From an uncultured Gammaproteobacteria bacterium (GTDB lineage Bacteria > Patescibacteriota > Microgenomatia > Levybacterales > UBA12049): DNA of 54,080 bases. Below, piece after piece: positions 92-28,488 of this stretch. Both the position numbers and the translations under genes were made by a program. The notes beneath the pieces are model-generated. The model worked only from the letters and a program-made list of their open reading frames with translations. It had not been told where the DNA came from and searched no databases. Numbering within the stretch: position 1 is the stretch's first letter; every line of letters begins with the position of its first letter. The DNA is taken from NCBI GenBank assembly GCA_964610465.1, contig CAZSWA010000009.1, positions 1 to 54,080 on the forward strand, given 5' to 3'.

Positions 92-226
92 AAACTTGAG
101 AAATGTAAATTTTTCACATACGCTAAATGTAATGATGCAATTCTAGAGTATAAGGAAAGCGGAAATTGGCTGCGGACATTAGCTAACATTAGACCAGCTT
201 TTGCTTCAAATTCCTGTTTGCTATAA
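92..226 (+). pseudogene. Decayed C-terminal fragment of a large serine recombinase
   Basis: Frame 2 reads KLEKCKFFTYAKCNDAILEYKESGNWLRTLANIRPAFASNSCLL*. AILEYKESGNWL aligns with ALLEYQRTRDVL at the end of the LSR at 9230-10804. There are in-frame stops upstream. Confidence 0.5.
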
Positions 227-587
227 TCGCAATTAGCTGTATGTCAAGAGAACATATTCGTCGTGAATTACAAAACTTGGCATGGAGAGCAAAGGACACA
301 ATTCAAAGACTTCAAAATGATGATTAAGAGGATTTGGCCAATATTGTGAAACAAGTTGACTTGCTTTCACAGATGCATCAAAGGCGGTTTTATATACTTC
401 ATCTAATATTATTTTCTCTTCAGAAGATATAAATTGATAATACTAACTTTTGTTAAGGCAAGCACTAGTGTCTCTACCATAAGATCAGCTATTTTATTTC
501 TTTTCATATTTCAGTTCATACATCATATTACCACAAGAGGTTAAAATTCAGAAGAGGCTAATAAGGTTTTCTGAAGCTAAATATTAG

Positions 588-623
588 GTGCTGGCACTGG
601 TTGACTTTGTCGGAACTTTTTAC
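588..623 (+). repeat. att-like half-site (P'-type arm), copy A
   Basis: gtGCtggcactggttgactttgtcgGAACtttttac. It resembles the inverted copies at 5962-5997 and 9152-9187, and GTGCTGG recurs at 10748-10754. Confidence 0.7.
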
Positions 624-707
624 AAAAATAATTTGCAGCAAAGTTTTAGTGATAAGTAACACACTTTAGTATTGACTCTAAAGTCATCTTTTGTATACAG
701 TTAATAT

Positions 708-1454
708 ATGCGGAAAATATTTCTCTTTATTTTGTCTTTAACAATCTTATATTTTTTATTAGCAAATAACATCAACACGTTTGCTTTAGCTTCTCAAAGA
801 GTACCAATAATAACTTATCATTACATCCGTGATTACAATAATGCACAAGACCCAATAGGTATCAGGCTTTCAGTATCTCCCGCTATTTTTGACAAACAAA
901 TGAATTATCTTACATCCCATGGATATACGCCTATTACTCTTGATATGCTCTATGGCATATGGAATGGTCAAGCTCAATCTCCAACAAAACCAGTAGTATT
1001 AACCTTTGATGATGGATATATTGATTTTTACGCTAATGCCTATCCAATTTTAAAAAAATATAATTTCCATGCAGTTTCTTTTGTAGTAACAGGCTTTGTG
1101 GGAAAACCTGCCTATCTTTCCTGGAGCAATATTAAAGAAATGCAGTCATCTAGTCTAATTTCATTTGAAGCACATACAGTAACTCATGCGTATTTACCAA
1201 GATTATCGTATGCAAATATGTTGAATGAGCTACTGCAGAGTAAAACAACACTCCAATCTCAAACAGGTGTGGTTATTAATTTTATTGCCTATCCATATGG
1301 TGCCTCTAATGGGACAGTGCAAAATGCTGCTGCAAAAGCAGGGTTTGTTGGAGGACTTGGAACGTGGGGAGGATATGCGTCGTATAAGAGTATGAACATG
1401 CCACGTTTTTATGCAAAAAACTCATTACAAAGTATTTCTTCACTATTACCTTAA
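708..1454 (+). CDS. Secreted polysaccharide deacetylase (CE4/NodB-like)
   Basis: N-terminal hydrophobic signal; motifs PIITYHYI, LTFDDGY, HTVTH, AYPYG. Confidence 0.92.
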   Translation: MRKIFLFILSLTILYFLLANNINTFALASQRVPIITYHYIRDYNNAQDPIGIRLSVSPAIFDKQMNYLTSHGYTPITLDMLYGIWNGQAQSPTKPVVLTFDDGYIDFYANAYPILKKYNFHAVSFVVTGFVGKPAYLSWSNIKEMQSSSLISFEAHTVTHAYLPRLSYANMLNELLQSKTTLQSQTGVVINFIAYPYGASNGTVQNAAAKAGFVGGLGTWGGYASYKSMNMPRFYAKNSLQSISSLLP

Positions 1455-1489
1455 TACCCTTTAGGGAAAATTTATTTTCAAAGTTATTG

Positions 1490-3514
1490 TTAATTACAAG
1501 CGTGTGTATAAGCATCTAACTTTCTGTTCTTCAATATTCCACTGAACTGTAGTTGTTTTGCTTGTGGACAAAACTTATCTGTTGTCATACCTGTATCTGT
1601 ATATTCTGATGCAAAGACAGGTTTATCACTATATATAAATGGTGTCATGTCACTACACCAGCCCTGTTGAAAACAATCTTCGGTAATTGCAAAATCAAAA
1701 TAGGGAAGTAAGTCATGTACTTGCTCACTATCGTTTTTCAGTCCAATAAGAAGCCCTCGCTTGTGTGCTTCTTGAGAAACCCACTTGTTAAAAGTAAGTT
1801 GGTCGTCATAGGTGAGCGAGAATCCTGTATCTTCCTGGTATCCATGGATATTATCTGGCTCAACAGCGTCAAATCCTTTCTGTTGGCACATATCTAATCT
1901 TTTTTGCAAAATAGGTCCAATAATACTTAACTGCCGAATATCTAGCCATTTTTCTCCAGACCAATTAGTGTAGTCTTTGCCAATAACGCTTTGAGGAAAT
2001 TGACTCGCATCACCTCTCCAATTTTCCCACGAACCCATACTTATGTAGCAAATAACCTTACTTCCTTTTGCATGCAAGGTATTAACTACAGCCATATCAT
2101 TTTTCTCGTAATCTATATCAAATACTTTAGCATCAACTGACGTGTCTACATCACCATCAAGCTGCCATTGCCAAGAAGAACCAATAAGACTACTCCAATT
2201 GGTTTGACTAGTTGGAGAGATTATTGGAGAAATTGAAGGAGTGTTTGCCATTTGTTTATTGCCAAAAATTTGTAGCACATCATTATCATAGGTAATGTGT
2301 CCATCTTGATGCGTTACTCCAAGTCCAAAACAATCATCATATCCCCACAAAGTCCAGCCAATATGATTTTGTTCAAATATATATTTTACGTCTTTTAACC
2401 ACTGAAGTTTAGATTGTCTTGGTGTTTGTTTGCAATACACACCAAATTCACCAACCCAAATAGGTACATTGTTGTTTTTCTTTGACCAGTCAACTGCTCT
2501 TTGAATAAATTTTGCAAGTGTTTCTTTGTTCCATCCTTGGTCACAGTATCCTTGTACTTCATCTCGAGCATTATCGGTAGTTACTTTTGCAAGTACTTGT
2601 TCACAATTTGATGGGTTTTCAGGATACTCTAAGTTTGCAATAGAAGGATATGAATCTCCGCCCCAATCAGCACCCTGATGCGTAAACGCCATTGGTTCAT
2701 AGAAATGGAAAGAATAGATAATATTTTTATCTGTTGATGGTTTTACATTTTCTAACCCTTCAATGCCTCCCCAATTTGCTCCGATTGCAATGATGGTATT
2801 GTCTGGTGCTTGCTGTCTTACTGTTTGAATAAGTTGATTTTGCAACTTCAGCCACTCTTGTTCTTTGCCATCAAAGACAGGTTCATTCAAGAGTTCAAAG
2901 TAAACATTGTTTGTATCAAATTTGGTAAGGTGATTTGAAAAATTTCTCCAGAAAACTAAAAAATCTTGGGCATTCTTCTGATTCTCAAATGTTTTTTGTT
3001 CGTCATGAACATCGACAACAACAGCTATATGATGAGAAAGAATACGTTCAATTGCTTTATCAATAAATGGAAGCATGTGCGTGTTGATTTTTGTCAATGT
3101 AGTTGCGTCAAAAATATATTGAGGAGCAATAGATAAACGAACATGAGTAAAACCATTGTTTTTAATCAAGCTTAAATCATCATCAGTAATATAATTTGCA
3201 AAGTACTTGTCACTCTCATCAAGAGGGAACCGAAACCAGAGTGAAATATCAACACCTCTTTGCAATTTATTTACTCCTGAAGAAACATCTGTAATTTCTT
3301 TTTTATTTATTGTAGAAACATGTTTCATGTTATTTATGTCTGTATATTGGAAGATATAAAAAAATATTGTCATAATTAGAAATAGTAAAAATAAGCTGAT
3401 TAGGCTTAAAATAACAAAAAATTTCTTTTTTTTACTACCTAGAGTGATAGATTCTTTAGAAATAGCGTAGGTATTTTGTGCATTAGGTAATTTGGTAGAT
3501 TCTTTTATCTTCAT
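1490..3514 (-). CDS. Membrane-anchored two-domain glycoside hydrolase (GH5 + GH114-like)
   Basis: TM helix; GH5 motifs HVRL, ELLNEP, SFHFYEP, WVGEFG; Pro/Ser linker; C-terminal WQWQL, VICYISMGSWENWRGDA, GFDAVEPDN, GLKND, ASEY typical of endo-alpha-1,4-galactosaminidase-like GH114. Confidence 0.88.
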   Translation of the reverse strand: MKIKESTKLPNAQNTYAISKESITLGSKKKKFFVILSLISLFLLFLIMTIFFYIFQYTDINNMKHVSTINKKEITDVSSGVNKLQRGVDISLWFRFPLDESDKYFANYITDDDLSLIKNNGFTHVRLSIAPQYIFDATTLTKINTHMLPFIDKAIERILSHHIAVVVDVHDEQKTFENQKNAQDFLVFWRNFSNHLTKFDTNNVYFELLNEPVFDGKEQEWLKLQNQLIQTVRQQAPDNTIIAIGANWGGIEGLENVKPSTDKNIIYSFHFYEPMAFTHQGADWGGDSYPSIANLEYPENPSNCEQVLAKVTTDNARDEVQGYCDQGWNKETLAKFIQRAVDWSKKNNNVPIWVGEFGVYCKQTPRQSKLQWLKDVKYIFEQNHIGWTLWGYDDCFGLGVTHQDGHITYDNDVLQIFGNKQMANTPSISPIISPTSQTNWSSLIGSSWQWQLDGDVDTSVDAKVFDIDYEKNDMAVVNTLHAKGSKVICYISMGSWENWRGDASQFPQSVIGKDYTNWSGEKWLDIRQLSIIGPILQKRLDMCQQKGFDAVEPDNIHGYQEDTGFSLTYDDQLTFNKWVSQEAHKRGLLIGLKNDSEQVHDLLPYFDFAITEDCFQQGWCSDMTPFIYSDKPVFASEYTDTGMTTDKFCPQAKQLQFSGILKNRKLDAYTHACN

Positions 3515-3649
3515 GTCTTTAGTGTGAAATGTAGATGAAGCAAAGTCAACATATACTTGAATTCGTTAGATGAATTTCGAACACAAACAGCTTCTAGAAT
3601 TGCTAAAATATCCAGAACTTATTCACCAACAGTTATCCAAATTCTTAAG

Positions 3650-3940
3650 TTATCGAGTTAGGTTATTATAAATTCTGTTAGCTTCAGTAATGGTCTGATT
3701 AAGTTGGGTTTGTGGATTATTTCTAAAGTTAATAATGTTGTCTTCATTATAGTTAGCCTGTCGATAAAGTATATTTTTAAATAGTTGATTTAATATTTCT
3801 AAAAAATTGCTTTTACCCACACCATTTGGACCAATAAGTATGTTAAGGTTTTTATCAAATGTTATTTTCTGTGCTCTATTTATGTCGTTTTTATCTTCAA
3901 AACTTAATATGTTGGATACTTGGATATAGTTTATTTTCAT
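3650..3940 (-). pseudogene. Truncated ABC/SMC-type ATPase (N-terminal fragment)
   Basis: MKINYIQVSNILSF...NILIGPNGVGKSNFLE (Walker A). Only 96 aa, with no Walker B. Confidence 0.75.
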
Positions 3941-4015
3941 TTTAATTGCTTGCTAGCAATAATAGCACTTTTAAGATGGAATTAGTAGAATAATCAATTC
4001 GAATTGTTTTTGATT

Positions 4016-4627
4016 TTATGATTCCAGTGGGCTTGTTTCTATTCTCCTTTTAGCTTTAAATTTCCAAAAGTAAATAAAAGCAACAAGAGCAACATCACCA
4101 ATAAGACCATAGAATGGTCGTACATAAAGAATGCTCAAGGGTTTTCCAATAAGGGTAAGAATAGTAAATACATAAGCTACTACTGCTACTGTCCATGGGA
4201 GTGGGTCTTCTGAATTAGGTTCTGCTTTAATTTTAAGGATAGTCATGGTTGTTGCAGCAAGGTCAATGATAAGGGTAAGCCAAATGGCAGTAGCATTACT
4301 TTTGGTTATATACCAAATACCTATCGTATAGAGAGTGAAGACAAAGAGCAATCTATCCCATCTAGAGCTATCCCGTATGCCATATTTTAGAGAAAGCAGA
4401 AAAATAATAAGACTTCCTACAAAAAAGGTAAGAGAAATAAGCACGGAAGCTCTACCTCCAGCAAAGTACTGAGAAAAGAAGACAATGCCATTCATAATGA
4501 CAAAAACTAACCAACTCAATTGATGAGGCTTTGTTCGTTTCTTCAAAATGGCTTGAATATATGGAACAGTACAATAAATTGCTAAAGCTGTTGAAAGAAA
4601 TGCAGAGACGCTAATAACTAAGTTCAT
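4016..4627 (-). CDS. Integral membrane protein (PQ-loop-like)
   Basis: About 6-7 hydrophobic segments; PYI..ILK..TKP...SW motif and a second KxxPxSE...W repeat. Confidence 0.7.
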   Translation of the reverse strand: MNLVISVSAFLSTALAIYCTVPYIQAILKKRTKPHQLSWLVFVIMNGIVFFSQYFAGGRASVLISLTFFVGSLIIFLLSLKYGIRDSSRWDRLLFVFTLYTIGIWYITKSNATAIWLTLIIDLAATTMTILKIKAEPNSEDPLPWTVAVVAYVFTILTLIGKPLSILYVRPFYGLIGDVALVAFIYFWKFKAKRRIETSPLES

Positions 4628-4688
4628 AAGCCTATTGTAGCATAGGGATAAACTTCTCTATGGTTTCTACATAGGGCAGCTTTATATA

Positions 4689-5921
4689 TCAAATTATATC
4701 AATTGTATTACCCATCTTTCTAATTTTGTCTCCCATCCTGTATATGATAACTGCCAAAAGTAATCCAGCAAACATTAGTGCAACCATACCAATAATAATT
4801 TCATTGATTAATCCTTTTGCTGTCATATACCCAACTACAGGAGTACCAATGACATACGCAATAGACTCAAGAAAAGAAGCAGCAGAAAGAGTTGTAGCTC
4901 GATGATTCGGATCTATAGCTTTATTTATTTGAGTACTAAGCATTGGTATGTTCACATAAGTTGCAATTTGAAGAATAGTAAGACCGACAAGAGATACTAT
5001 AAGTAAGCTCCCTAAATTTACTCCAATACCAATAGTGCAGATAAGACCTAAAACAAAAATTGTGCCCGGAACGAAAAGTTTTGATGCATATTTTCTCACT
5101 AGAAACAAAGCAAATATGGTAAAAACTAATGCCAAAGATATTGCTGCAGAAATAGAATTAATAGGAAATCCTGCGTGTTGGTATAAAATTGGTCGTAGAA
5201 TTCCTGCTGTAAATACAGAGTATGAGAGTCCTTGAACAAGTAAGTACATTGGCACAATCCAAGCTATTTTGAGTTTAAAGATTTCTTGCACTCCAGATTT
5301 TAATTTGTAGAAGTATGCCTTTATCTCATCTGCTGCTTCAGGTTTTGGTTGAAATCTATCAATAACAGCAAGTTTATATAGAGGTATTAACATAAGGAGA
5401 AAAGTTATTCCTCGAAATAAAAAGGGTAATCTATCAAAATGTGCATAGGCTATACCTCCAATAAATACTGATATTATGAAAGATACTCTAGCAATAATAT
5501 TGTTATTTGTAGTAACTTTATGCCATAAATCCTCTTTTCCATGACTCTTTAAATAGTCATACATCATTGCGTCATCGGCACCAGTTTGAAAAGCAGTTCC
5601 AATGTAATACAGCAAGTCACCTAAAAAAATCATCACCCCAGTTGTTGCCAATCCCCACAGAAAAAAGCCTAGGCCATTGAGAATCACTCCGAGAATTACC
5701 ATGTTTCTTCTACCAAATTTATCTGCCAATGCTCCTGTAGGAATATTTGCCAACATTCCTATACCAAATGTTATGGCTTCAATAACCCCAAAAGTACTAA
5801 TACTAATAAATTTTTCACTAAAAAAAACCAATATTCCAGTAGCGAACCAAGTACCAACAAGAGAATAGTATATGTAATAAAGTCGTATTTGTTTGTTAAT
5901 GTCAGTGACCATTAGAAGCAT
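4689..5921 (-). CDS. MFS transporter
   Basis: 12-TM pattern; MFS motif A GALADKFGRR; C-terminal RATTLS. Confidence 0.92.
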   Translation of the reverse strand: MLLMVTDINKQIRLYYIYYSLVGTWFATGILVFFSEKFISISTFGVIEAITFGIGMLANIPTGALADKFGRRNMVILGVILNGLGFFLWGLATTGVMIFLGDLLYYIGTAFQTGADDAMMYDYLKSHGKEDLWHKVTTNNNIIARVSFIISVFIGGIAYAHFDRLPFLFRGITFLLMLIPLYKLAVIDRFQPKPEAADEIKAYFYKLKSGVQEIFKLKIAWIVPMYLLVQGLSYSVFTAGILRPILYQHAGFPINSISAAISLALVFTIFALFLVRKYASKLFVPGTIFVLGLICTIGIGVNLGSLLIVSLVGLTILQIATYVNIPMLSTQINKAIDPNHRATTLSAASFLESIAYVIGTPVVGYMTAKGLINEIIIGMVALMFAGLLLAVIIYRMGDKIRKMGNTIDII

Positions 5922-5961: not shown

Positions 5962-5997
5962 CTATAAAAAGTTCCTACATAGTTCAAAAGAGCCAGC
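5962..5997 (-). repeat. att-like half-site, copy B (inverted)
   Basis: Minus strand reads GCtggctcttttgaactatgtagGAACtttttatag, nearly identical to 9152-9187. Confidence 0.75.
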
Positions 5998-6014: not shown

Positions 6015-6047
6015 CATAGTCTGATTGGACTATGTGAGAACTTTTGG
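6015..6047 (+). repeat. att-like half-site, degenerate copy C
   Basis: ttggactatgtgaGAACtttt is an inverted match to aaaaGTTCctacatagttcaa at 5967-5987. The GC core is absent. Confidence 0.6.
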
Positions 6048-6066: not shown

Positions 6067-6366
6067 ATGCAAAATACAATTCCAAAAGCATTTATTGCAC
6101 TTTTCTTTCTTCTAATCATTTTTGTATGGTCTATAACAGTTTTTCAAAAACAAAAATCCAAATTCTCTCTCATGCAACTTTCTGGTTCAGTATTGTTACT
6201 CTTTGTTGCGCTGTTTCATAGCTTTGAAGAATTTCACTTATTTACTTTTATGCAGTGGGGACAACCGCACAGTATTGGACATTATCTTGACTTCTTCAGT
6301 GCAATCCTTGGCGTGTTGTTTTTCTTAGTTGGAATAATATCTCCTTTGTTTGTTAAGCGAAAATAA
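6067..6366 (+). CDS. Small membrane protein (3 TM)
   Basis: Hydrophobic ORF with H..E....F..MQWG.PHS.GHYLD; TATACT just upstream of the ATG. Confidence 0.75.
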   Translation: MQNTIPKAFIALFFLLIIFVWSITVFQKQKSKFSLMQLSGSVLLLFVALFHSFEEFHLFTFMQWGQPHSIGHYLDFFSAILGVLFFLVGIISPLFVKRK

Positions 6367-6526
6367 AGGTTTAACACGTTTACATTTTCCAGGTATGATT
6401 AATCTCAAAAATTTGCATAGGTGGAAATCTAGATGAGCTAATTATAGCCTAATAATTGTTGTTTTACGAGGTATATGAATTTGAGTTAGTAGAATTTAGG
6501 AGTCTTCCAATTATTCCCGTTACTAT

Positions 6527-7177
6527 TTATATTCTATTTAAGAGTTTATAGCCAATGATAGCCAGTGCTTCGTGAAGAAAGTCCCTATTCGTGAGATTGT
6601 TTTTATCTTGTTCCCAACAAGGGCTATTACTAGCAGGTGATACCGAGTACGTATAATGTAATTTTGATGCTATCAGTTCTGCTCTAGCAATTTGGTAGGG
6701 TTCAGTAACTATGATAACCGAATGCAATCCAGCTTGATTTATTACTTTTTGAGAAAATAAAAAGTTCTCATATGTTGAGGTTGATTTATTTTCCATTAAA
6801 ATAGCTGTTAAAGGAACACCAGCTTTAGTAGCGATATTTTTCATAGTTTCAGCTTCATTTGCGCCATCTTCTTTATCGGTTCCTCCTGACATAAGTATTT
6901 TTGGAGCATAGTGGTCTTTATATAGAGAAACAGCTTGGTCTACTCTGGCAATAAGACAAGGATTTAAATGACGCTTGAGGACAAAGCCCTTTTTTTTGCA
7001 AATGGGACCATAACAGGAAGTACCACCATAAGCAGCACCACCCAAGACTAAGATAACATCTGATTTAACTTTTGTATCTTGTTCTGCCATTTTGTCAACA
7101 TAAAATAACAGTGAAAAAAATAAAAGTAGAGATGATACTGCAATTATCGCAAGCAAAATGAGTAGTTTTTTCCTCAT
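6527..7177 (-). CDS. YdcF/DUF218 (SanA/ElyC-like) family protein
   Basis: N-terminal TM; motifs DVILVLGG, ILMSGG, EAETM, ENKSTSTYEN, IIVT..YQ..RA. Confidence 0.9.
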   Translation of the reverse strand: MRKKLLILLAIIAVSSLLLFFSLLFYVDKMAEQDTKVKSDVILVLGGAAYGGTSCYGPICKKKGFVLKRHLNPCLIARVDQAVSLYKDHYAPKILMSGGTDKEDGANEAETMKNIATKAGVPLTAILMENKSTSTYENFLFSQKVINQAGLHSVIIVTEPYQIARAELIASKLHYTYSVSPASNSPCWEQDKNNLTNRDFLHEALAIIGYKLLNRI

Positions 7178-7307
7178 CTGAAGTTCTATTGTAAATTGAA
7201 ATTATTGAAGATACAAGAGTATGTAGACGTGTATACATAGAAGATACGAAAATACTAAAAAAAGGTATTTCTACCTTCTTTTAGCTGAGATAACAAGAAA
7301 CTTATTG

Positions 7308-7916: not shown

Positions 7917-8022
7917 CTCATCACCTCCTTTCGGTATCTTTTATAGTAAAACAGAACAATAATCTTAGCAAGCACATCAATAATAATTATGTGTATTTAA
8001 GAGCAATTACGGTGAAAAATGT

Positions 8023-8574: not shown

Positions 8575-8587
8575 AATAGTAATTGCA

Positions 8588-21281: not shown

Positions 21282-21309
21282 TTTCTCACAAAATAATATT
21301 AATATTACA

Positions 21310-23208
21310 ATGAAAATCAACATTAGTTCCTTATGGCAAAGCTTAGGTATTGAAGACAAGGCAGGTCTGGTACAGCAGCTATATGACGCATATTACGGTG
21401 AAGTTTTAGTCAGTGGGGATATTATCCACGTTAAAGGATTCCAAGCAGAACAATATGTACGTAATCATTCAAAGGTCTGTGGATTTCATAATGAGGAAAC
21501 TCTCAAAGAAATAACAGAATTTGGAGCAATTACCCCTATAGATCATGACCGTAGCAGATTTCCTTATTATGACAAGACTATTGGAACAAATGTTTATAAG
21601 GTATTAATCGACTGGGAAAAAGTTGGTCAATATGCAGGTTTTCTTCAAGACCATGAAGCGAACGATCAGTACGGTTTTGCCCAACAGAAACAAATCATAA
21701 GAAAAACTTTACAAGAACTGGATAAAAAAAGTAAATATAAAGATTTGGTTATCTCTGAAAAAATACTTGGTAAATATCTTGATCACGCATCAATTGCACA
21801 AGCAGTACATGGCGATGATAGTCCTGATCGACATGTTAAATTTGTTGAAACGCTTAAAGGTTTAGAAAAGGACGGATTCTTGGTAATTAAAAAAATGCAG
21901 TTTAATTTTAATGCTGTTCCTATCCCTATAGAAGAGGAAACGGAACGACTCCAGGAACCCTTTTATGTAGATGAAGATGCTTATTTTTACCCAGCAGAGC
22001 ATTGCAAAATAACAGTAGCGCTTTCAGATTCTAAATCGATTGAGGGGGTCTTGCTAAAAGAAGAAGCAAAGCATGCCATTCCCGCAGAAGCAATACTTTC
22101 AGCTATTGAAGAAGATGAGGACGTCCGTGAGCAAGAAGAATTTTATAAGGACAAAATACAGCTTGTCAGCAAATTGTTACAAATATGCACTCCTGAATTT
22201 TTAGAAGTGGAGCTGCGTTCACCAGCACATCTGGTACAAAATGATGACTTTAGAGCTGGCTTCGATCATCCTAGCATTCTGGACACTTTAAAAAAGAAAA
22301 AGGTATTTACGAAGGTTAAAGATTTGACTTATAAGCAAACGTCTAGCCTAATGTATTTGGCTACAGTGGACTATCAAAACCTATGTAAATTTGCAGAAGA
22401 ACTGCATGATGAAGTAGAAGCACAAGGGGAAGTCTATGGTTTTGAGATACAAAAAAAGATTTTATTGAACCGTCTCAAGGAAGTTTTTAATCAGTCTCCT
22501 CAGGAAAATACCTTTAAAGTTTCGGAAGCATTATTAGGCTCTTATAAACCAGAGAATCGTACTAGTAGACCTGCGGGAATCTCATTAACTCGCCCAGATA
22601 AAGAAAGGCCTGATATTCGTTACCAATTCATGCGTACCATGCGGGCTTTAGAAAAAGAAAAATATTTTGAAATTAGCTCAGTGAACTTTGATTTCTATGC
22701 TGAGCCTAAGCAAACTTCGGAATCGAAAAAGCGAGCAATTTGGGGTTCTGATGAGCCATTCGAGTACTATTCACCACAGCATTGCCAAGTTGCATTAAAG
22801 TTATCTACTGAAACAAAACCCTCAGGGTCTTCCAGCAAGAGCATTACTGTAGAAGATTCACGGGGACTTCCAAAAGATGAAATTTATACTTGTGGCAATC
22901 TTACAATTAATATTACAGCAGCTACACTTAAATATAAAGACAATCCAGAGATTGACATACAACCTGGAAACCAAGAAATTCAACTTTTGATAATGCTAAT
23001 TAAAAATCATCGAGTTGTTAAATATGCTGAAATCGCAAAAGAAATAGAATCAACCTCTTTTGTTAGTGAAGACGTTGGAAGAGCTGTTGGTTATATAAGA
23101 AAAACATTAAGAGACGTATTATTACAAGCAGGTATGAACGAAAGTGAAATAAAAAGAATGATTGTAACCATAAGGAAAACAGGATATAAATTGGTATGTC
23201 CAAACTAG
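21310..23208 (+). CDS. Hypothetical protein with an internal duplication and a C-terminal OmpR-type winged helix
   Basis: Two homologous units of about 240 aa; tail YTCGNLTIN...QEIQLLIML...VV.YAEIA...I..LR..L...IVTIRKTGYKL. Confidence 0.75.
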   Translation: MKINISSLWQSLGIEDKAGLVQQLYDAYYGEVLVSGDIIHVKGFQAEQYVRNHSKVCGFHNEETLKEITEFGAITPIDHDRSRFPYYDKTIGTNVYKVLIDWEKVGQYAGFLQDHEANDQYGFAQQKQIIRKTLQELDKKSKYKDLVISEKILGKYLDHASIAQAVHGDDSPDRHVKFVETLKGLEKDGFLVIKKMQFNFNAVPIPIEEETERLQEPFYVDEDAYFYPAEHCKITVALSDSKSIEGVLLKEEAKHAIPAEAILSAIEEDEDVREQEEFYKDKIQLVSKLLQICTPEFLEVELRSPAHLVQNDDFRAGFDHPSILDTLKKKKVFTKVKDLTYKQTSSLMYLATVDYQNLCKFAEELHDEVEAQGEVYGFEIQKKILLNRLKEVFNQSPQENTFKVSEALLGSYKPENRTSRPAGISLTRPDKERPDIRYQFMRTMRALEKEKYFEISSVNFDFYAEPKQTSESKKRAIWGSDEPFEYYSPQHCQVALKLSTETKPSGSSSKSITVEDSRGLPKDEIYTCGNLTINITAATLKYKDNPEIDIQPGNQEIQLLIMLIKNHRVVKYAEIAKEIESTSFVSEDVGRAVGYIRKTLRDVLLQAGMNESEIKRMIVTIRKTGYKLVCPN

Positions 23209-23325
23209 CCCCGCTTTTAATCCGCAAATATTCCGTAATTTTCACCATTTAATTTCCGTTTTCATTTTTGCTTCTGCATAGGAAAATTGGTCTGGTAGCG
23301 CAACAAGTTTGCCACCAAAACCAAT

Positions 23326-23598
23326 ATGACTATTAATCAAGAATCAATAAACAGATTACGTGTTGAAGACTTTTATTCAACCACCGATCTTGCATTGGCT
23401 ACAGCAATTTCCTTATTTTTTCCAATCGAAGCAATAGATAAAACTTCTAACTCTTATAAAGCACAATTCCTTTTTCGCAGAAGCAAAGAACTTGACCAGC
23501 TTGTAGAAGCAGTTTGGAAAAACGAGCTAAAAGTATCTCCACTTGCTTATTTCAGTCAGTTGAAAAACATTAAAGCCCGACTATATGCAAGCCGTTAA
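23326..23598 (+). CDS. Small conserved protein (DUF5659-like)
   Basis: F.TTDLALA..I......AIDK.....A.F.F......LV...W..EL.VSP..YF..LK.IK.RLY. Confidence 0.75.
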   Translation: MTINQESINRLRVEDFYSTTDLALATAISLFFPIEAIDKTSNSYKAQFLFRRSKELDQLVEAVWKNELKVSPLAYFSQLKNIKARLYASR

Positions 23599-23752
23599 TT
23601 CCTTACCGAAAGAAGAGATTGAAGAATTTAAAAGACTGTATAAAAAAATTTATAAAGTCGAGCTGAGTGATGAAGAAGCAACTCGTCGAGCTAACAATCT
23701 TTTTGCTTTATATCTTGCAGTATATGGCTCAAGCAGAAAAACAAAAATATGA
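23585..23752 (+). CDS. 55-aa hypothetical protein (below the ORF-track cutoff)
   Basis: MQAVNSLPKEEIEEFKRLYKKIYKVELSDEEATRRANNLFALYLAVYGSSRKTKI*. It overlaps the upstream gene and is ATGA-coupled to the Prim-Pol gene. Confidence 0.75.
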   Translation: MQAVNSLPKEEIEEFKRLYKKIYKVELSDEEATRRANNLFALYLAVYGSSRKTKI

Positions 23753-25785
23753 CAAATAAAGATTACGCATTACAATATTTAAAATTAGGTTTATCAGTTA
23801 TTCCAACACATGGCAAGAAACCACTCATAGCTTGGCAGAAATACTCCAAAGAAAAGCCAACTATAGAAGAAATAGAAGCATGGTGGACACAATCGCCAAA
23901 TGCTGATATTGCTTGCCCTACGGGTGAGGTATCAAATTTAGTAGTGGTTGATGTAGATGGTGGCGAAGTACCTTCCTTGCCTGCCACAGTCACTTCTGAG
24001 ACTAGTCCAGGACATTTTCAATACTTCTTTAAGCATCCTGGTTTTCCTATTCAAAATTCAGCAAAAATTATTGCTCCTAATATTGATATTCGAGGAGATG
24101 GTGGGTTTGCCGTTCTACCACCTTCTAGACATTTTAACAAAGAGACGGGACAGCAGGATTTTACTTATAGATGGGTTAATTCCCCTGAAACAACGGAACT
24201 TGCAGAATTACCATCTTGGGTAATGGAAAAAATAAAGGAGAAAAAGGATGTCGAAACACTTGTGCAAGGTTCAACACAGGGATCTCGTAATAACGACGCA
24301 GCATCCTTAATTGGCTCGTTGCTTGTACGGTATCCTCAAAGAGAGTGGGAATCAATTTGTTGGCCGCTTGTTGAAGCATGGAATGATAGAAACAATCCAC
24401 CTCTACCTTTAGGAGAGCTGCAAAGCGTTTTTAACTCAATTAAAGCAAGAGAGCTAAGCAAAAACCCACGACAAGACAGTCCACCTTATACAGTTGGCAC
24501 TGACTTGTCTAGGGTTGCAGATATTCCAGCTCTTGAGACAAATACAATCTCCTATACACCTCTTTTGTTATCACAGTTATCCTCTGAGGAAAATCCTGTC
24601 GAATGGGTATGGGAAGGATTTTTAGCAAGAAAACACTTAACACTACTTTCAGCGCTGTGGAAAGCTGGTAAAACCACTCTTATTACCAATCTGTTAAAAG
24701 TGATGCAGGAAGAAGGAAATTTAGCAGGACAAAAAACTCACAAGGCTAATGTTCTTATACTTTCCGAAGAATCTGGAACAATATGGGCACGAAGACGAGA
24801 CGAGCACGATATAACATTACCTGTCTGGATATTATCACGACCTATCAGACGAAAACTCGGATATAACGAATGGGTTACTCTCCTTGAGCAAACATCACAA
24901 TTTTGCAAAGAAAACCAGATTGATCTATTTATTATTGATACGCTCTCTGCTTTTTGGTCTGTTGACAACGAAAACGACGCTGCTAGGGTTGCCGCAGCGC
25001 TTCTTCCACTTAATCATTTACTGGACAAAAATATTGCAGTACTTCTGGTGCATCATTTTCGTAAATCAGGTGGCGACGAAGGAACAGCATCCAGAGGATC
25101 GGGTGCTCTAGGAGCAGGCGTTGATATAATGGCTGAATTTTCAAGACTAGATAGCACAGATCCGCATTGTACGCAGCGGGTAATAAAAACCTACTCTCGG
25201 TTTGAGGAATCACCTAAAGAAGTGGTTATTGATTATATCGATGATGAGTACACAACAATTGGTACAAAGGCTGATGTTAAACGAGCGGAAAAACTTGAGG
25301 CAGTTTCAAAGGCATTAGCAGACTATCCAGATGGAGTAACTATATCTGAACTTCATGAAAAATGGAACAGCGAGGAATTTGGCAAAACTCCTTCCCGAAG
25401 AACATTGCAACGGTATTTAACAGATTTGGTGAATCAAGGCACAGTCGTTATAATCGGCACTGTAAAAATAAAAGGTGGAAATACGCCGCTTTATAAGCTC
25501 TCAGAAATAGTAAACCCTGGACAATTTACCCCCGACAAAGAGAATAGATCAAATGGATTTCCAAGCCAAAACCTTAGTCAAGACAGTGATTCAGAAGATT
25601 TGTCAAAGGTTGATGGGATAAAAGACGCATTGGTTAAAGAGGAAAAGGAACTTAGATATGCATTGCGAGAAAAAGATAAAAAATCAGAGGATTACGCAGA
25701 GATTTATAAAAAATGGTTTGCAGCCCGTGAGAAAGGAGTGGAAATGGGAGTGTTCCAATTTTTTGTTCCCTCTCCCACTGAATAG
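23749..25785 (+). CDS. Bifunctional primase-polymerase with PriCT and RecA-like AAA helicase domains
   Basis: LSVIP..K.P, LVVVDVD, IDIRGDGG..VLPPS; GSRNN (PriCT); KAGKT, FIIDTL, VHHFRK..RGS; C-terminal wHTH-like region. Confidence 0.9.
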   Translation: MTNKDYALQYLKLGLSVIPTHGKKPLIAWQKYSKEKPTIEEIEAWWTQSPNADIACPTGEVSNLVVVDVDGGEVPSLPATVTSETSPGHFQYFFKHPGFPIQNSAKIIAPNIDIRGDGGFAVLPPSRHFNKETGQQDFTYRWVNSPETTELAELPSWVMEKIKEKKDVETLVQGSTQGSRNNDAASLIGSLLVRYPQREWESICWPLVEAWNDRNNPPLPLGELQSVFNSIKARELSKNPRQDSPPYTVGTDLSRVADIPALETNTISYTPLLLSQLSSEENPVEWVWEGFLARKHLTLLSALWKAGKTTLITNLLKVMQEEGNLAGQKTHKANVLILSEESGTIWARRRDEHDITLPVWILSRPIRRKLGYNEWVTLLEQTSQFCKENQIDLFIIDTLSAFWSVDNENDAARVAAALLPLNHLLDKNIAVLLVHHFRKSGGDEGTASRGSGALGAGVDIMAEFSRLDSTDPHCTQRVIKTYSRFEESPKEVVIDYIDDEYTTIGTKADVKRAEKLEAVSKALADYPDGVTISELHEKWNSEEFGKTPSRRTLQRYLTDLVNQGTVVIIGTVKIKGGNTPLYKLSEIVNPGQFTPDKENRSNGFPSQNLSQDSDSEDLSKVDGIKDALVKEEKELRYALREKDKKSEDYAEIYKKWFAAREKGVEMGVFQFFVPSPTE

Positions 25786-25787
25786 CT

Positions 25788-26387
25788 ATGAGTACTAATA
25801 CAAAAGATATGACAAAAGTATCGCATGTGGAAAGCTCAAAAGAAGTAGTTAAAAAAATCGATATAAAAGAGTTTATCAGTGGCTGTGCTATCGGTGATGA
25901 TCCAGTTGCGGTTTTGAAGCAAGCGCAGCATGACTTAGACAATATTGAAGATAAACAAAACATGACTGCAAAGTCCAGTCTTTATAAAGTATTAACGCTC
26001 TACGAATTTGATAAAGGGATTCTCGCAACATCCGCACTTCCTGAGAAATATCGCACCTTCTGCATTGATTTTAGCCGAAATTTGCAGAAAGAGTACAAAT
26101 GCGAATCGCCAAGTGAAAAAGCTACTGCGGAGCTTGTTGCTTTAAATTTTGTACGAGTCATTATCATACAGGATAAAATAACTTCATTTTTGGCATTAGG
26201 AAGTGTTACTGATACTACTGCAAAGTATTTTGCTGATTTAAGTAAAGAAATGGATAGAGCAAATCGTCATTATCTAAACTCCTTACAAACTCTAAAAGCA
26301 ATTAAATTACCAGCTCTTGAAGTAAATATAAAAACGCAAACGGCGGTTGTGGGACAAAATCAGATAGTACAAGCAAATAACAAATGA
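25788..26387 (+). CDS. Hypothetical protein of the element core
   Basis: 199-aa ORF coupled to its neighbours; DRANRHYL.SLQTL..IK.P..EVNIK...AVVGQNQ tail. Confidence 0.8.
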   Translation: MSTNTKDMTKVSHVESSKEVVKKIDIKEFISGCAIGDDPVAVLKQAQHDLDNIEDKQNMTAKSSLYKVLTLYEFDKGILATSALPEKYRTFCIDFSRNLQKEYKCESPSEKATAELVALNFVRVIIIQDKITSFLALGSVTDTTAKYFADLSKEMDRANRHYLNSLQTLKAIKLPALEVNIKTQTAVVGQNQIVQANNK

Positions 26388-26707
26388 TAAAGCCATACGA
26401 TTTAGGAAAAAATAATTTAGTCGAGTATAGTCAAAAAATAAACATTGACGATATTGTTCGGCAAATAAACAAAGACCTGAAACATCAAATGTTGCAGTCG
26501 TCCATAGAAGTTATGGGGTTACAACTCAGCTTGCTTACCTCTAGTACGAGATTTCATGGAAAGCGGTATTGGTTTGCCTGTCCAGTTTGTAATAATAGAA
26601 CTGGAACAATTTATAGACATCCGATTACTTTACAAGTTGGCTGTAGAAGTTGCTTAGGAATACAATATAGAAAACAGCGATTTAAAGGAATGCTCGAAGG
26701 AGCTTAA
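26384..26707 (+). CDS. Zinc-finger protein
   Basis: RYWFACPVC...IY....VGCRSCLGIQY; ATGA overlap with the upstream gene. Confidence 0.8.
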   Translation: MIKPYDLGKNNLVEYSQKINIDDIVRQINKDLKHQMLQSSIEVMGLQLSLLTSSTRFHGKRYWFACPVCNNRTGTIYRHPITLQVGCRSCLGIQYRKQRFKGMLEGA

Positions 26708-26713
26708 ATTTTC

Positions 26714-26742
26714 TTGACATTCAAGATCAAACTGAATATGAT
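26714..26742 (+). promoter_or_regulatory. Sigma70-type promoter of LSR2
   Basis: TTGACA (26714-19), 17-bp spacer, TATGAT (26737-42). Confidence 0.8.
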
Positions 26743-26747
26743 AAAGA

Positions 26748-26832
26748 TGTGCTCAGAGATATAGGTGGAGTTTTTTAGTGCCCTCATTGGACAGGACTTC
26801 ACCGTTCTGAGCACAACCAGTGGGGGCGCTTA
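26748..26832 (+). ncRNA. Structured 5' leader (hairpin plus pseudoknot or alternative stem) of LSR2
   Basis: TGTGCTCAGA/TCTGAGCACA; GGTGGAGT/ACTTCACC; loop AGTGCCCTCATTGG pairs with CCAGTGGGGGCGCT (14 bp, 3 G-U). Confidence 0.65.
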
Positions 26833-26841
26833 ATTATTAAT

Positions 26842-28488
26842 ATGACGAATAAAACTGATAACCTTGAGTATTTTATTTATGCACGTAAAAGTACGGAGTC
26901 AGAGGATAGACAGGTTCTCTCCATTGATTCACAAAAAAGCGAATTGCAAGAAATTGTCAAAAGAAACAGTTTAACAATTGCCGATGTTAAGCAGGAATCA
27001 CACTCAGCAAAAGCTCCTGGAAGACCAGTTTTTAATGAATTACTTGATGAAATAGAGCATGGGAAAGCACAGGGCATAATCGTCTGGAATGTTGATCGTC
27101 TTTCCCGAAATTCGGTTGACACAGGTAGACTTATTTATCTTTTTGATATAGGAAAGCTCCATGAAGTTATTACACCAAGCCAAGTATTTCGAAACACTCC
27201 TAATGATAAATTCTTATTATCACTACTTTGCTCAACTGCAAAGCTGGACAATGACAATAAAGGCATTAATGTAAAACGAGGATTGAAAGCCAAAGCTGAA
27301 CTTGGTATTTATCCAGCTCCTGCGCCAACTGGCTACGTAAATAACAAATTTGCTGAAAGAGGAAATAAAACGGTGGAAATTGATCCAGACCGTTTTGATC
27401 TGGTGAAAAAAATGTTTGAGATGGTTCTCTCACAAAAATACTCTGTTCTTCAAGTTTTGAAAATAGCCAATGATGAATGGAAATTTAAGACAAAGGAAGG
27501 AAAGAAACTCGGAAGAAGCACATGGTATCGAATGCTTACAAATCCTGTATATGCAGAAACCTTTGAGTATCCGTTAGGGAGTGGCAACTGGCATAAAGCA
27601 ATTCACAAACCAATGATTACCGACGAACAGTTTAACTTTCTCCAAGTCATTCTGGGCAAAAAAGGTAAACCCAAGCCCAAAACGCACCTTTTTGCATTTA
27701 CTGGACTTATGCGATGCGGTGAATGCCAAGCTATGATTACCTGCGAGGAAAAAATTAAAAGGCAAAAGAATGGAAATGTTCATCACTATATTTACTATCA
27801 CTGCACAAAGCGAATAAATCCCAATTGCACACAGGGGTCAATTGAGGAGGAGGATCTCAAGACAGAAATTAAAAATAAATTAGGCAAAATAAAAATTCCA
27901 CCAGAGCTTCATGATTGGGGTTTGCGTCAAGTAAAGAGAGTTAATAAAAATGAGACGGAATTTACTACAAAGATCCTTACTAACCAGCAAAAAGCTTATA
28001 ATGACGTTTTGGCACAGATAAGTGAATTAATAGACATGCGCTCTTCAAAAGAGATCACTCGTGAACAGTTGATGGAAAAGAAGCCGCCACTTGAAAAGGA
28101 ACGAGATCGACTAAAAGAACTCCTTGATGGAGTGGATGACAGAGTGAAGAAATGGCACAGGAAAGCTGATGAAATATTTGACTTTGCAAGAGACGCTGCG
28201 GAAGAGTTCAATAACGGTGGCTTGGAAAAGAAACGGGAGATCCTTTCAAAACTTGGTTCGAACCTCATTCTAAAGGATAAAAAGCTCTATGTTGACCTCG
28301 AAGAAACGCTTGTCCCTATGATTGAAGCTGCAAAGGAAGCAAAAGCAATTGAAGAACGGTTAGAAACTGTCGAAGGGGTTGATAGGACAAGCCAATTGGA
28401 AGTCGCTTACGCTGAAAGTCCAGTAATGCTGGGAAGCCTGGATTCGAACCAGAATAAACAGATCCAAAGTCTGTTGTCCTACCATTAG
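26842..28488 (+). CDS. Large serine recombinase/integrase (LSR2)
   Basis: YARKSTE, SAKAPGRPVF, DRLSRN, APTGY, CGEC..YYHC..C. The C-terminus LGSLDSNQNKQIQSLLSYH is the antisense of tRNA-Gln. Confidence 0.96.
   Translation: MTNKTDNLEYFIYARKSTESEDRQVLSIDSQKSELQEIVKRNSLTIADVKQESHSAKAPGRPVFNELLDEIEHGKAQGIIVWNVDRLSRNSVDTGRLIYLFDIGKLHEVITPSQVFRNTPNDKFLLSLLCSTAKLDNDNKGINVKRGLKAKAELGIYPAPAPTGYVNNKFAERGNKTVEIDPDRFDLVKKMFEMVLSQKYSVLQVLKIANDEWKFKTKEGKKLGRSTWYRMLTNPVYAETFEYPLGSGNWHKAIHKPMITDEQFNFLQVILGKKGKPKPKTHLFAFTGLMRCGECQAMITCEEKIKRQKNGNVHHYIYYHCTKRINPNCTQGSIEEEDLKTEIKNKLGKIKIPPELHDWGLRQVKRVNKNETEFTTKILTNQQKAYNDVLAQISELIDMRSSKEITREQLMEKKPPLEKERDRLKELLDGVDDRVKKWHRKADEIFDFARDAAEEFNNGGLEKKREILSKLGSNLILKDKKLYVDLEETLVPMIEAAKEAKAIEERLETVEGVDRTSQLEVAYAESPVMLGSLDSNQNKQIQSLLSYH

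What the first reader, a model, noticed from the sequence alone, without database searches (positions are those of the whole stretch)
169..28449. Serine-recombinase island partitioned by a family of att half-sites with the attP/attB 5-bp offset
Seen in sequence: related half-sites with a GC core followed 21 nt later by GAAC at 590(+), 5997(-) and 9187(-). Weaker copies lie at 169(+, GACC), 6015(+), 3556(+) and about 15920(+). Where the two intact LSR genes end (10750 and tRNA-Gln 28428), the same GCtgg core is followed by GAAC after 16 nt. Established: LSR zinc-ribbon-domain motifs sit 5 bp further from the crossover in attP than in attB, and a symmetric core such as GC permits either orientation. 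Inference: unrelated cargo blocks (for example 590-5997 and 6015-9187, each with inward-pointing arms) are units added, excised or inverted by the LSRs. That would be an integron/shufflon-like array run by serine recombinases rather than one prophage.
Basis: partly seen in the sequence, partly recalled or inferred. Interest (0 to 1): 0.85.

Follow-up and report, generated by a model that had tools for sequence, protein, structure and literature searches.

The report
Gene-cassette island stacked at tRNA-Gln
The span is a pile of inserted DNA units stacked against the end of a tRNA-Gln gene, separated by conserved junction sequences that imitate the tRNA end, and two serine-recombinase genes sit exactly at such junctions, which suggests (but does not prove) an integron-like gene-capture system.

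Summary
The three strong sites (590+, 5997-, 9187-) are real copies of a sharply bounded 36-nt motif. 6025+ is a weak copy. 169, 3556 and about 15920 are not members. The sites at 10750 and 28428 are a second conserved arm ("motif-2") and the 3' end of tRNA-Gln.

The motif occurs in 41 of 194 genomes of this small-genome family. There it usually forms same-orientation arrays of one- or two-gene cassettes beside tRNA-Gln.

LSR2, and homologues of LSR1, end exactly at the GC beside tRNA-Gln. LSR1 itself ends at the same GC beside motif-2. The span therefore reads as two tandem LSR elements: E1 at 590-10751 and E2 at 10750-28429.

Cassettes recur in different array positions and genera. One G121 cassette lies next to the tRNA in one copy and next to another cassette in the other.

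Not shown: any recombination, junction reads, or LSR dependence. 15 of 41 motif-bearing genomes lack an LSR. The junctions do not fold like attC, and no tyrosine integrase is nearby.

Verdict: partly supported. This is an SCC-like or integron-like variant; the enzyme is inferred.

The parts
1..49 (.). Multi-copy repeat at the contig end (IS-like). It hides what lies left of the island.
   Evidence: Shared at 98-100% with nine other contig ends. A Logan record over it has depth 505 against 40 for the rest.
545..589 (+). Left arm of junction S1, holding two GARGCTAA words.
   Evidence: Sequence. The same word lies 5-19 nt before the GC in many junctions of relatives, and right beside tRNA-Gln in G022, G081 and G011.
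590..625 (+). Motif-1 copy S1, with GC at 590-591. It is an attP-type right arm and the proposed left end of element E1.
   Evidence: 38.7 bits. Its orientation fits tRNA-Gln on the minus strand, as in 15 other genomes.
708..5921 (.). Cargo block A: polysaccharide deacetylase, a GH114/GH5 hydrolase, a 96-aa fragment of a defence-type ATPase, an unknown protein and an MFS transporter.
   Evidence: Pfam and PADLOC.
5962..5997 (-). Motif-1 copy S2, inverted relative to S1.
   Evidence: 39.7 bits. Repeats D3 and I1.
6025..6045 (+). Weak partial motif-1 copy (profile positions 11-31), back to back with S2.
   Evidence: 13.3 bits, E 0.004, against a best of 8.9 in shuffles. The homologous flank beside C15:28195 is 77.5% over 80 nt.
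6067..9022 (.). Cargo block B: an unknown protein, DUF218, DUF5666, DUF4337 and DUF1003.
   Evidence: Pfam. The DUF218 gene is 76.7% identical in DNA to a gene beside a motif-1 copy in G134. The DUF4337 and DUF1003 genes have paralogues on C15 in swapped order.
9152..9187 (-). Motif-1 copy S3, inverted, 43 nt upstream of LSR1.
   Evidence: 37.3 bits; sequence.
9230..10804 (+). LSR1, an intact large serine recombinase of 524 aa.
   Evidence: Resolvase, Recombinase and Zn_ribbon_recom domains; phrog_95 integrase at 9e-65; catalytic-domain alignment to 3GUV. Homologues at 69-71% in G037 and G040, and 13 of 22 metagenome homologues, end flush in tRNA-Gln.
10750..10829 (+). Junction S4: GC at 10750-10751, the motif-2 arm (10750-10788), then a GAAGCTAAAT... 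word. Proposed attL of element E2.
   Evidence: Motif-2 profile at E 8.9e-09. About 80% identical to the stretch that follows the LSR2-type gene of G004. Motif-2 recurs at 11 sites in 9 other genomes.
10869..15846 (.). E2 cargo: three unknown proteins (the 569-aa one is shared with the G004 element) and the N-terminal half of a type I restriction R subunit.
16368..20054 (-). Response regulator and a CheB-CheR-PAS histidine kinase.
   Evidence: Pfam. Paralogues lie beside junctions on C15 and near tRNA-Gln(CTG) on C6.
20038..20259 (-). A 73-aa HTH_17 (excisionase-type) protein, candidate directionality factor.
   Evidence: PF12728 at 1.3e-13.
20347..26707 (+). Satellite-like module: cI-type HTH, small terminase, unknowns, DUF5659 and a PrimPol-helicase. 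No capsid genes were found.
   Evidence: Pfam and PHROGs.
26842..28488 (+). LSR2, an intact large serine recombinase of 548 aa. Its last 20 codons read through tRNA-Gln on the opposite strand.
   Evidence: Pfam; phrog_95 at 7e-73. 28% identical to LSR1.
28428..28499 (-). tRNA-Gln(UUG). The GC at 28428-28429 covers the discriminator position and the next base. Proposed attB-type right arm and attR of E2.
   Evidence: ARAGORN and Rfam; sequence.

Best explanation
The span is a composite island stacked against the 3' end of tRNA-Gln(UUG). Its units meet at bipartite junctions. The left arm carries a GARGCTAA word. Then comes a GC. The right arm imitates the acceptor/T-arm end of tRNA-Gln.

There are two kinds of right arm. 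Motif-1 (590, 5997, 9187, weak 6025) has the GAAC block 5 nt further from the GC than the tRNA does, which is the attP-type register. Motif-2 (10750) keeps the tRNA register.

The window holds two tandem recombinase-bearing elements. E2 (10750-28429) is a satellite-like element with LSR2 flush against the tRNA. E1 (590-10751) carries LSR1 and was pushed away from the tRNA when E2 inserted.

The likely mechanism is that large serine recombinases join a circular unit (left arm-GC-mimic arm) to the tRNA end. New units would then enter next to the tRNA, and older ones pile up behind it. Units without a recombinase, the small cassettes of relatives, would be moved in trans.

Shown here: the site family, its anchoring to tRNA-Gln, the flush position of the LSR genes, and reuse of cassettes in different positions.

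Inferred: that LSRs act on motif-1, the exact crossover, any present-day activity, and the origin of the inverted copies.
For: 1. Real family. Nine strong copies in the genome lie on two contigs (E 5.5e-10 to 5.5e-06). The motif occurs in 41 of 194 genomes and 30 of 89 genera of the family, while the reversed control pattern hits once. None was found in the 16 genomes of two sister families.

2. Anchoring to tRNA-Gln. Of the 41 genomes, 15 have tRNA-Gln within 10 kb on the predicted side and strand, and 2 more at 18-28 kb (G024, this window). 12 have at least 8 kb of flank and none; 12 contigs are too short. My rough chance estimate is about 1% per genome.

3. Cassette geometry. In 61 of 74 motif instances a convergent ORF stops within 400 nt of the T-rich end. 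The median gap is 18 nt, 44 are within 40 nt, and 10 use a stop codon inside the motif.

4. Same cassette, two contexts. In G121 a 520-nt unit, 88% identical, is followed by tRNA-Gln on one contig and by the next cassette's motif-1 on another. Identity runs from motif-1 through GAGGCTA.

5. Exchange across genera. The RibD_C gene with its motif-1 is 74-86% identical in DNA across genera, which exceeds the 73-80% seen for flanks within one genus.

6. LSRs at the same GC. LSR2 abuts tRNA-Gln. LSR1 homologues in G037 and G040 and 13 of 22 metagenome homologues also end flush in tRNA-Gln. LSRs of five further clades do so in G024, G027, G132 and G170.

7. attP-like arrangement. G004 shows an LSR2-type 3' end, then GC, then motif-2, with the same 569-aa and HTH genes as E2.

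8. Two further islands have the layout motif-1 ... LSR ... tRNA-Gln: L120 (10.4 kb) and G170 (5.3 kb).

9. The 5-nt shift matches the attP/attB rule for the zinc-ribbon motif (PMC3783163).

10. The junctions have no hairpin (z -1.06 to +1.39) and match no Rfam family, which fits a double-strand protein site.
Against: - No recombination product was seen. Only contigs were available, and the 622/9189 'joint' is a cross-match to motif copies on contig C15.
- LSR presence is barely enriched: 26 of 41 motif-bearing genomes against 78 of 153 without the motif. G121 has at least 8 copies, and G014 has an array, with no LSR found.
- Only 4 of the 17 tRNA-linked islands hold an LSR between motif and tRNA.
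- The arms are strongly asymmetric. Motif-1 is best conserved at +13 to +34, beyond the 25-bp half-site of the studied LSR.
- Motif-2 shows no 5-nt shift.
- LSRs next to motif-1 islands belong to different clades, 25-35% identical, so no single clade is tied to the motif.
- The G121 pair diverges in the 4-7 nt before the GC, so the crossover is not fixed to GC.
- The three copies in this window break the family's rule on ORF orientation.
- An exact 456-bp duplicate on C15 is not bounded by junctions.
Confidence: 0.55

Rival explanations
1. Fossil scars. The junction arms are leftovers of successive LSR-element integrations at tRNA-Gln, each followed by deletion. Nothing moves now, and small cassettes are not mobile units.
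For: 15 of 41 motif-bearing genomes have no LSR. No variant junctions appear in the contigs. The island holds truncated genes: an HsdR half, an ATPase fragment, and a PAS-HisKA fragment on C15. The copies in LSR-free G014 are weaker (E 5.7e-08 to 0.0064).
Against: The arrays are regular. ORF stops lie a median 18 nt from the motif, and left arms are near-identical within a genus. The motif is conserved over 30 genera. One cassette sits in two contexts with intact arms. Cassette identity across genera is high.
Confidence: 0.15
2. Expression signals. Motif-1 and the GARGCTAA arm are binding sites for a regulator or promoter/terminator parts of genes that lie downstream of tRNA-Gln. The arrays arose by ordinary duplication and gene turnover.
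For: Left arms carry an extended -10-like TGnTATAAT reading into the cassette ORF. In this window all four copies, and C15:8976, lie 17-170 nt upstream of a co-directional gene. Motif-1 contains two GAAC-type blocks 11 nt apart (my reading).
Against: The motif travels with the ORF upstream of it, not with the ORF it would regulate. In 61 of 74 cases it abuts a convergent stop codon. It has a sharp edge at the same GC where LSR genes meet tRNA-Gln. It mimics the tRNA end, and a variant beginning GCGG lies next to a tRNA-Ser whose end begins GCGG. No sigma-70-like spacing is present within the motif (my reading).
Confidence: 0.15
3. Another recombinase runs the arrays, for example the two or three Xer-like tyrosine recombinases present in every genome, or an unrecognised enzyme. 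LSR elements merely use the same tRNA-Gln hot spot.
For: Arrays exist in genomes without any LSR. All five genomes tested hold tyrosine recombinases. The asymmetric, long arms are unlike studied LSR sites.
Against: In 4 of the 5 genomes no tyrosine recombinase lies near an array; in G024 one sits next to the LSR inside the island, about 15 kb from the motif. There is no attC-like fold. The LSR genes are flush with the very GC that bounds the arms, in at least 7 clades.
Confidence: 0.12

Closest known systems
Staphylococcal cassette chromosome (SCC) elements and their composite islands, run by the Ccr large serine recombinases
   Same: Units insert at the 3' end of one conserved housekeeping gene and stack in tandem. 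They are demarcated by short repeated integration-site sequences. Some units lack a recombinase and depend on one supplied in trans. Source: search listing and abstracts of PMC3900703 and PMC13739063; details otherwise recalled.
   Different: The target here is tRNA-Gln, not rlmH. The junction arms are long (36-40 nt), conserved across 30 genera, and imitate the target. Many units are single genes of 0.5-1 kb with their own promoter-like arm. Kinship of these LSRs to Ccr was not tested.
Phage and ICE large serine integrases (A118/LI, phiC31, Bxb1 type) with attP/attB
   Same: Same domain set. The integrase gene lies at one element end. The crossover is presumed at a central dinucleotide. The outer sequence block sits 5 bp further out in the element-borne arm than in the host arm (PMC3783163).
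   Different: Studied sites are 40-50 bp and roughly symmetric. Here the two arms are unrelated, conservation reaches +34, a second arm type lacks the shift, and the sites recur as arrays.
Integrons (IntI tyrosine recombinase, attI, attC)
   Same: Same-orientation arrays of short cassettes anchored at one site. The recombination site follows, and sometimes contains, the ORF stop codon. The cargo is of typical cassette kind: GNAT, glyoxalase, NUDIX, DHFR-like.
   Different: No IntI lies next to the arrays. The junctions do not fold. The site is conserved in sequence rather than in structure. Cassettes seem to carry their own promoter arm.
tRNA-gene genomic islands of tyrosine integrases, with displaced tRNA 3' fragments (Islander-type)
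   Same: Islands pile up at a tRNA gene and are marked by tRNA-like repeats (abstract of PMC4383910).
   Different: The repeats here are not copies of the tRNA end but a conserved mimic with a 5-nt insertion. The tRNA is not split. No tyrosine integrase is involved.

Membership tests
Large serine recombinase integrative element | Integrase with resolvase catalytic domain, recombinase domain and zinc ribbon | tested here: met
   LSR1 and LSR2 both carry PF00239, PF07508 and PF13408, although the LSR1 PF13408 hit (21.7 bits) is below Pfam's curated cut-off of 25.3. Both hit phrog_95 integrase. The LSR1 N-terminus aligns to resolvase 3GUV, including the R-x-S-S stretch.
Large serine recombinase integrative element | Integrase gene at the element end, beside an att junction with a host target | tested here: met
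   LSR2 is flush with tRNA-Gln. LSR1 homologues are flush with tRNA-Gln in G037, G040 and 13 of 22 metagenome loci.
Large serine recombinase integrative element | Element arm and host arm share inner positions, with the outer block shifted 5 bp outward in attP | tested here: inconclusive
   Met for motif-1 against the tRNA end: GAAC at +22-25 against +17-20, shared GCTGG and CTGGA. Not met for motif-2, which is in the same register.
Large serine recombinase integrative element | Short (40-50 bp), roughly symmetric attP with similar P and P' half-sites | tested here: not met
   Left and right arms are unrelated, and motif-1 is conserved to +34. Only this window has inward-pointing motif pairs.
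Large serine recombinase integrative element | Recombination between the sites by the enzyme | not testable with these tools
   Only contigs could be laid, and they show no true joints.
Integron | IntI-type tyrosine recombinase next to the array | tested here: not met
   PF00589 hits in G000, G004, G011, G014 and G024 are not adjacent to arrays, except one inside the G024 island about 15 kb away.
Integron | attC sites that fold as imperfect hairpins | tested here: not met
   Five junctions folded on both strands give z-scores from -1.06 to +1.39.
Integron | Array of same-orientation cassettes, each ORF followed by its site | tested here: met
   G004 7 of 7, G121 5 of 5 and G134 4 of 4 copies share one orientation. 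The median gap from stop codon to site is 18 nt. This window's own copies do not follow the rule.
SCC-type composite island | Tandem units at the 3' end of one housekeeping gene, bounded by repeated integration-site sequences, some without a recombinase | tested here: met
SCC-type composite island | Ccr-family recombinases and the rlmH target | not tested
   The target here is tRNA-Gln. Relation of these LSRs to Ccr was not examined.
Shufflon | Rci tyrosine recombinase and many inverted repeats that flip segments | tested here: not met
   No tyrosine recombinase lies in the span. Copies share one orientation in 14 of 17 multi-copy loci.

The most novel reading that the evidence does not exclude
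This is a serine-recombinase counterpart of the integron, spread through a whole family of small-genome soil bacteria. The 3' end of tRNA-Gln would serve as the fixed capture site. Single-gene cassettes would each carry a promoter-bearing left arm and a right arm that mimics the tRNA end in the attP register. Diverse LSRs, which themselves come and go as cassettes, would insert and remove them in trans.
Probability: 0.35. Interest if true: 0.9.

Novelty: new variant of a known kind. Interest (0 to 1): 0.7.

Why it matters
If LSRs do run these arrays, gene capture in ordered cassette arrays is not unique to integrons and their single-strand attC chemistry. It would have arisen a second time with a double-strand serine-recombinase mechanism, in bacteria with very small genomes where accessory gene space is scarce.

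The family offers natural site sets: the tRNA end, a mimic shifted by 5 nt and an unshifted mimic, with dozens of variants. These directly test the model of attP/attB discrimination by zinc-ribbon placement. They could also supply new orthogonal integrase-site pairs for genome engineering.

The cassette catalogue would be a map of the accessory functions these organisms trade.

Tried and rejected
Classical integron: rejected. No IntI lies near the arrays and the junctions have no hairpin.

Known RNA family: none apart from tRNAs in the window.

Sigma-54 or ECF promoter reading of TGGCAC/GGAAC: rejected by eye, on wrong spacing and no conserved -10.

Displaced tRNA 3' halves of a tyrosine-integrase island: rejected. 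Motif-1 and motif-2 are conserved families of their own and could not rebuild a tRNA.

Junction reads: the runs are kept as contigs only. The three listed joints are cross-matches to other motif copies or short low-side matches, so this is neither support nor refutation. All four runs may be the source sample.

A 456-bp exact duplicate on C15 and the RibD_C genes of G011 and G014 were examined for junction-bounded homology. Neither is bounded by junctions.

A tRNA-Gln-like arm for LSR2 elsewhere in 1-28380: none found beyond motif-1 and motif-2.

A motif-1-like stretch inside the LSR1 3' end (10706-10733) matches a G004 copy at 21 of 25 positions by eye but scores only 5.2 bits. I treat it as not significant.

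Similarity of window 160-190 to the flank of tRNA-Gln(CTG) on C6 is 15 nt at E 0.17 and was dropped.

Taxon: not obtained (one search gave none).

Literature: searches (listings and abstracts only) show no paper describing serine-recombinase cassette arrays at tRNA-Gln. Supplements are closed, and att-site tables of LSR surveys could bear on this.

Of the 35 metagenome loci, 22 were analysed. The 13 dropped (L130-L135, L137-L143) were cut before the LSR 3' end or were distant.

Full report
LAYOUT. The window is contig C9 of a 1.36-Mb, 32-contig genome with 36% GC and 97.65% completeness. The finding's span contains, in order:
- assorted cargo genes at 708-9022;
- LSR1 at 9230-10804;
- unknown genes and the N-terminal half of a type I restriction R subunit at 10869-15846;
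- a response regulator and a CheB-CheR-PAS histidine kinase at 16368-20054;
- a satellite-like module at 20038-26707, with an HTH_17 excisionase-type protein, a cI-type HTH, a small terminase and a PrimPol-helicase, and no capsid genes found;
- LSR2 at 26842-28488, whose last 20 codons run through tRNA-Gln(UUG) at 28428-28499 on the other strand.

THE OBSERVATION. The sites at 590(+), 5997(-) and 9187(-) are the strongest direct and inverted repeats of the first 30 kb. They form a 36-nt family with sharp edges; the consensus is GCTGGCACTAGTGGACTATGTAGGAACTTTTTATAG. The genome holds nine strong copies: these three and six on contig C15, all six in one orientation.

With a profile of 61 copies, the window's three score 37-40 bits. 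6025-6045 scores 13.3 bits. Nothing else exceeds the best of 20 shuffles, 8.9 bits.

The loose rule, GC then 21 nt then GAAC, is at chance level: 16 seen against 12 expected. With the five-letter core GCTGG it picks exactly the three strong sites at gap 21, and exactly 10750 and 28428 at gap 16.

BEYOND THE WINDOW. The motif is a property of the whole bacterial family. It is found in 41 of 194 genomes and 30 of 89 genera, against one hit for the reversed control pattern. It was not found in the 16 genomes searched from two sister families.

In relatives it forms arrays. G004 has 7-8 copies, G121 at least 8, G134 has 4, and G011 and G014 have 3-4. In 14 of 17 multi-copy loci all copies point the same way.

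Over 74 instances, a convergent ORF stops within 400 nt of the T-rich end in 61. The median gap is 18 nt, and 10 use a stop codon inside the motif. On the GC side the next ORF starts a median 80 nt away.

The cargo is a mixture: GNAT, glyoxalase, NUDIX, DHFR-like RibD_C, methyltransferase, ferrochelatase and many unknowns.

ANCHORING TO tRNA-Gln. Of the 41 genomes:
- 15 have tRNA-Gln within 10 kb on the predicted side and strand;
- 2 more have it at 18-28 kb (G024 and this window);
- 12 with at least 8 kb of flank have none there, one of which (G190) has it on the wrong side;
- 12 contigs are too short to tell.

G022, found only at 3 mismatches, fits as well. Both tRNA-Gln isoacceptors carry arrays in genus g23.

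JUNCTION ANATOMY. Read on the strand opposite to the tRNA, each junction has three parts:
- a left arm with a GARGCTAA word, which in several genera is preceded by an extended -10-like TGnTATAAT that reads into the cassette ORF;
- a spacer of 3-19 nt ending in GC;
- a right arm.

The right arm is one of three things:
- tRNA-Gln itself;
- motif-1;
- motif-2, which appears in the window at 10750-10788 and at 11 sites in 9 other genomes.

After the GC the tRNA end reads TGGGAAGCCTGGATTCGAACC. Motif-1 reads TGGCACTnnTGGACTATGTrGGAAC. They share TGG, CTGGA and GAAC, with GAAC at +17-20 in the tRNA and +22-25 in motif-1. Motif-2 keeps the tRNA register.

This 5-nt shift is what Rutherford et al. 2013 report for the zinc-ribbon motif of attP against attB. 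They also report a 25-bp attP half-site (PMC3783163, passages read).

A variant of the motif that begins GCGG lies 430 nt from a tRNA-Ser whose end also begins GCGG. This is a hint only: two genomes and one sequence type.

The junctions do not fold.

CASSETTE REUSE. In G121 the same 520-nt unit, 88% identical, lies next to tRNA-Gln on contig C10 and inside an array on C6. Identity runs from motif-1 through the body to GAGGCTA. The two copies then differ in a 4-7-nt spacer before the GC and the neighbour's arm.

Other examples, all:
- A RibD_C gene with its motif-1 is 74-86% identical in DNA across at least five genera. Flanks within one genus are 73-80% identical.
- A 1.5-kb unit shared by G134 and G135 (90.6%) ends 2 nt from a GC.
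- A G004 cassette ORF recurs in G084 at 85%.
- The window's DUF218 gene is 76.7% identical to a gene beside a motif-1 copy in G134.

The motif is thus linked to the ORF upstream of it. That argues against it being an operator for the gene downstream.

THE RECOMBINASES. LSRs are common in this lineage: 104 of 194 genomes have PF07508. Their 3' ends run antisense into the 3' ends of tRNA genes: Gln, Asn, Ser, Ile and Glu.

LSR1's closest homologues, at 69-71% in two genomes of a sister family, end in tRNA-Gln with the break exactly at GTGCTG. Of 22 metagenome homologues analysed (of 35 returned):
- 13 are flush with tRNA-Gln;
- 3 are flush with tRNA-Asn;
- 4 are followed by tRNA-like or other arms without a tRNA, one of which (L116) is in the shifted register;
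- 2 are cut.

In the window LSR1 is followed by motif-2 and a 28-nt GAAGCTAAAT... word. In G004 the same 80-nt module, about 80% identical, follows an LSR2-type gene whose last bases before the GC resemble those of LSR2. That module sits next to homologues of E2's 569-aa protein and HTH. This is the arrangement expected for the joined (attP) form of an E2-like element.

Hence E2 is 10750-28429. It inserted between tRNA-Gln and an older element, E1, whose LSR1 once abutted the tRNA. E1 plausibly reaches its motif-1 arm at 590. Two other islands have the same outline: L120 (motif-1, 8.8 kb, an LSR1-clade gene, tRNA-Gln) and G170 (5.3 kb).

WHAT WEAKENS THE LSR READING.
- No recombination was seen. 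The public runs are contigs, and the listed joints are cross-matches.
- LSR presence is only slightly higher in motif-bearing genomes, 26 of 41 against 78 of 153. G121 and G014 have arrays but no LSR.
- Only 4 of the 17 tRNA-linked islands hold an LSR.
- LSRs beside motif-1 islands belong to clades 25-35% identical.
- The arms are asymmetric and longer than studied LSR half-sites.
- Motif-2 has no shift.
- The crossover cannot be placed closer than the few bases up to the GC.
- The window's own copies are atypical. Two strong copies are inverted, and every copy precedes a co-directional gene. That would fit a symmetric attP or past inversions, but nothing shows which.

VERDICT. The best reading (0.55) is an SCC-like composite island of LSR elements and cassettes anchored at tRNA-Gln, with tRNA-mimic arms. 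Rivals are fossil scars (0.15), expression signals (0.15) and another recombinase (0.12).

I found no description of such arrays in two literature searches (listings and abstracts only). I rate it a new variant of a known kind, with interest 0.7.

Noticed in passing
L021:10185-10244 (G022) and L033 near 2340-2400 (G084): Motif-1 is interrupted by a 17-nt perfect palindrome with what looks like a 4-nt TTGA duplication. It resembles a tiny hairpin insertion element that targets the motif.
   Followed up: no
window 166-210 and 16012-16056: A 45-nt repeat, 80% identical (E 4e-4), same strand. Both copies start with a GCTGCGG-like stretch and contain the reverse of the GAAGCTAA word. The second lies in a 500-nt non-coding gap with T-loop-like scraps at 15896-15930. 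It may be an old internal junction of E2.
   Followed up: partly
contig C15 13399-13854 and 25455-25910 (L001, L002): An exact 456-bp duplicate holding only a glyoxalase gene. Its ends do not coincide with junctions. It is either a recent copy made by another route or an assembly effect.
   Followed up: partly
window 1-49 and the ends of most contigs of G000: Contig ends fall into a few families of shared terminal repeats; the window's own is shared with nine other ends. A Logan record over window 1-46 has depth 505 against 40 for the rest, so a high-copy insertion sequence fragments the assembly. Whether C9 and C15 adjoin is unknown.
   Followed up: partly
L022:9131-9373 (G037): An inverted, near-identical copy of the last 110 nt or so of the LSR gene is joined at GC to an arm in the shifted register (GCTGGCACT...CAAAC). 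It lies 6.6 kb from the LSR that abuts tRNA-Gln. It could be a product of wrong-orientation recombination at a palindromic core, or a second element remnant.
   Followed up: no
L070:1158-1683 (G047); L072 (G060): A motif-1 variant beginning GCGG lies 430 nt downstream of tRNA-Ser(TGA), whose end also begins GCGG. The inner part of the arm may co-vary with the target tRNA.
   Followed up: partly
window 14071-15846 and 3650-3940: Truncated defence genes sit inside the island: the N-terminal half of a type I restriction R subunit (profile positions 197-541 of 1107) and a 96-aa N-terminal piece of an AAA_15/Gabija-type ATPase.
   Followed up: partly
window 16368-20054; C15 20235-24209; C6 31819-32483: Paralogous response-regulator/CheB-CheR-kinase pairs sit beside junction sites or tRNA-Gln genes three times in one genome, and a PAS-HisKA fragment forms a cassette at C15 10807-11490.
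   Followed up: no
window 28464-28483: The long Logan contigs of all four runs end inside tRNA-Gln. This could reflect a branch in the assembly graph (alternative neighbours of the tRNA) or merely tRNA sequence shared with other organisms.
   Followed up: no
window 8023-9022 against C15 26071-27108: The DUF4337 and DUF1003 genes recur on C15 at 72-77% DNA identity but in swapped order.
   Followed up: no
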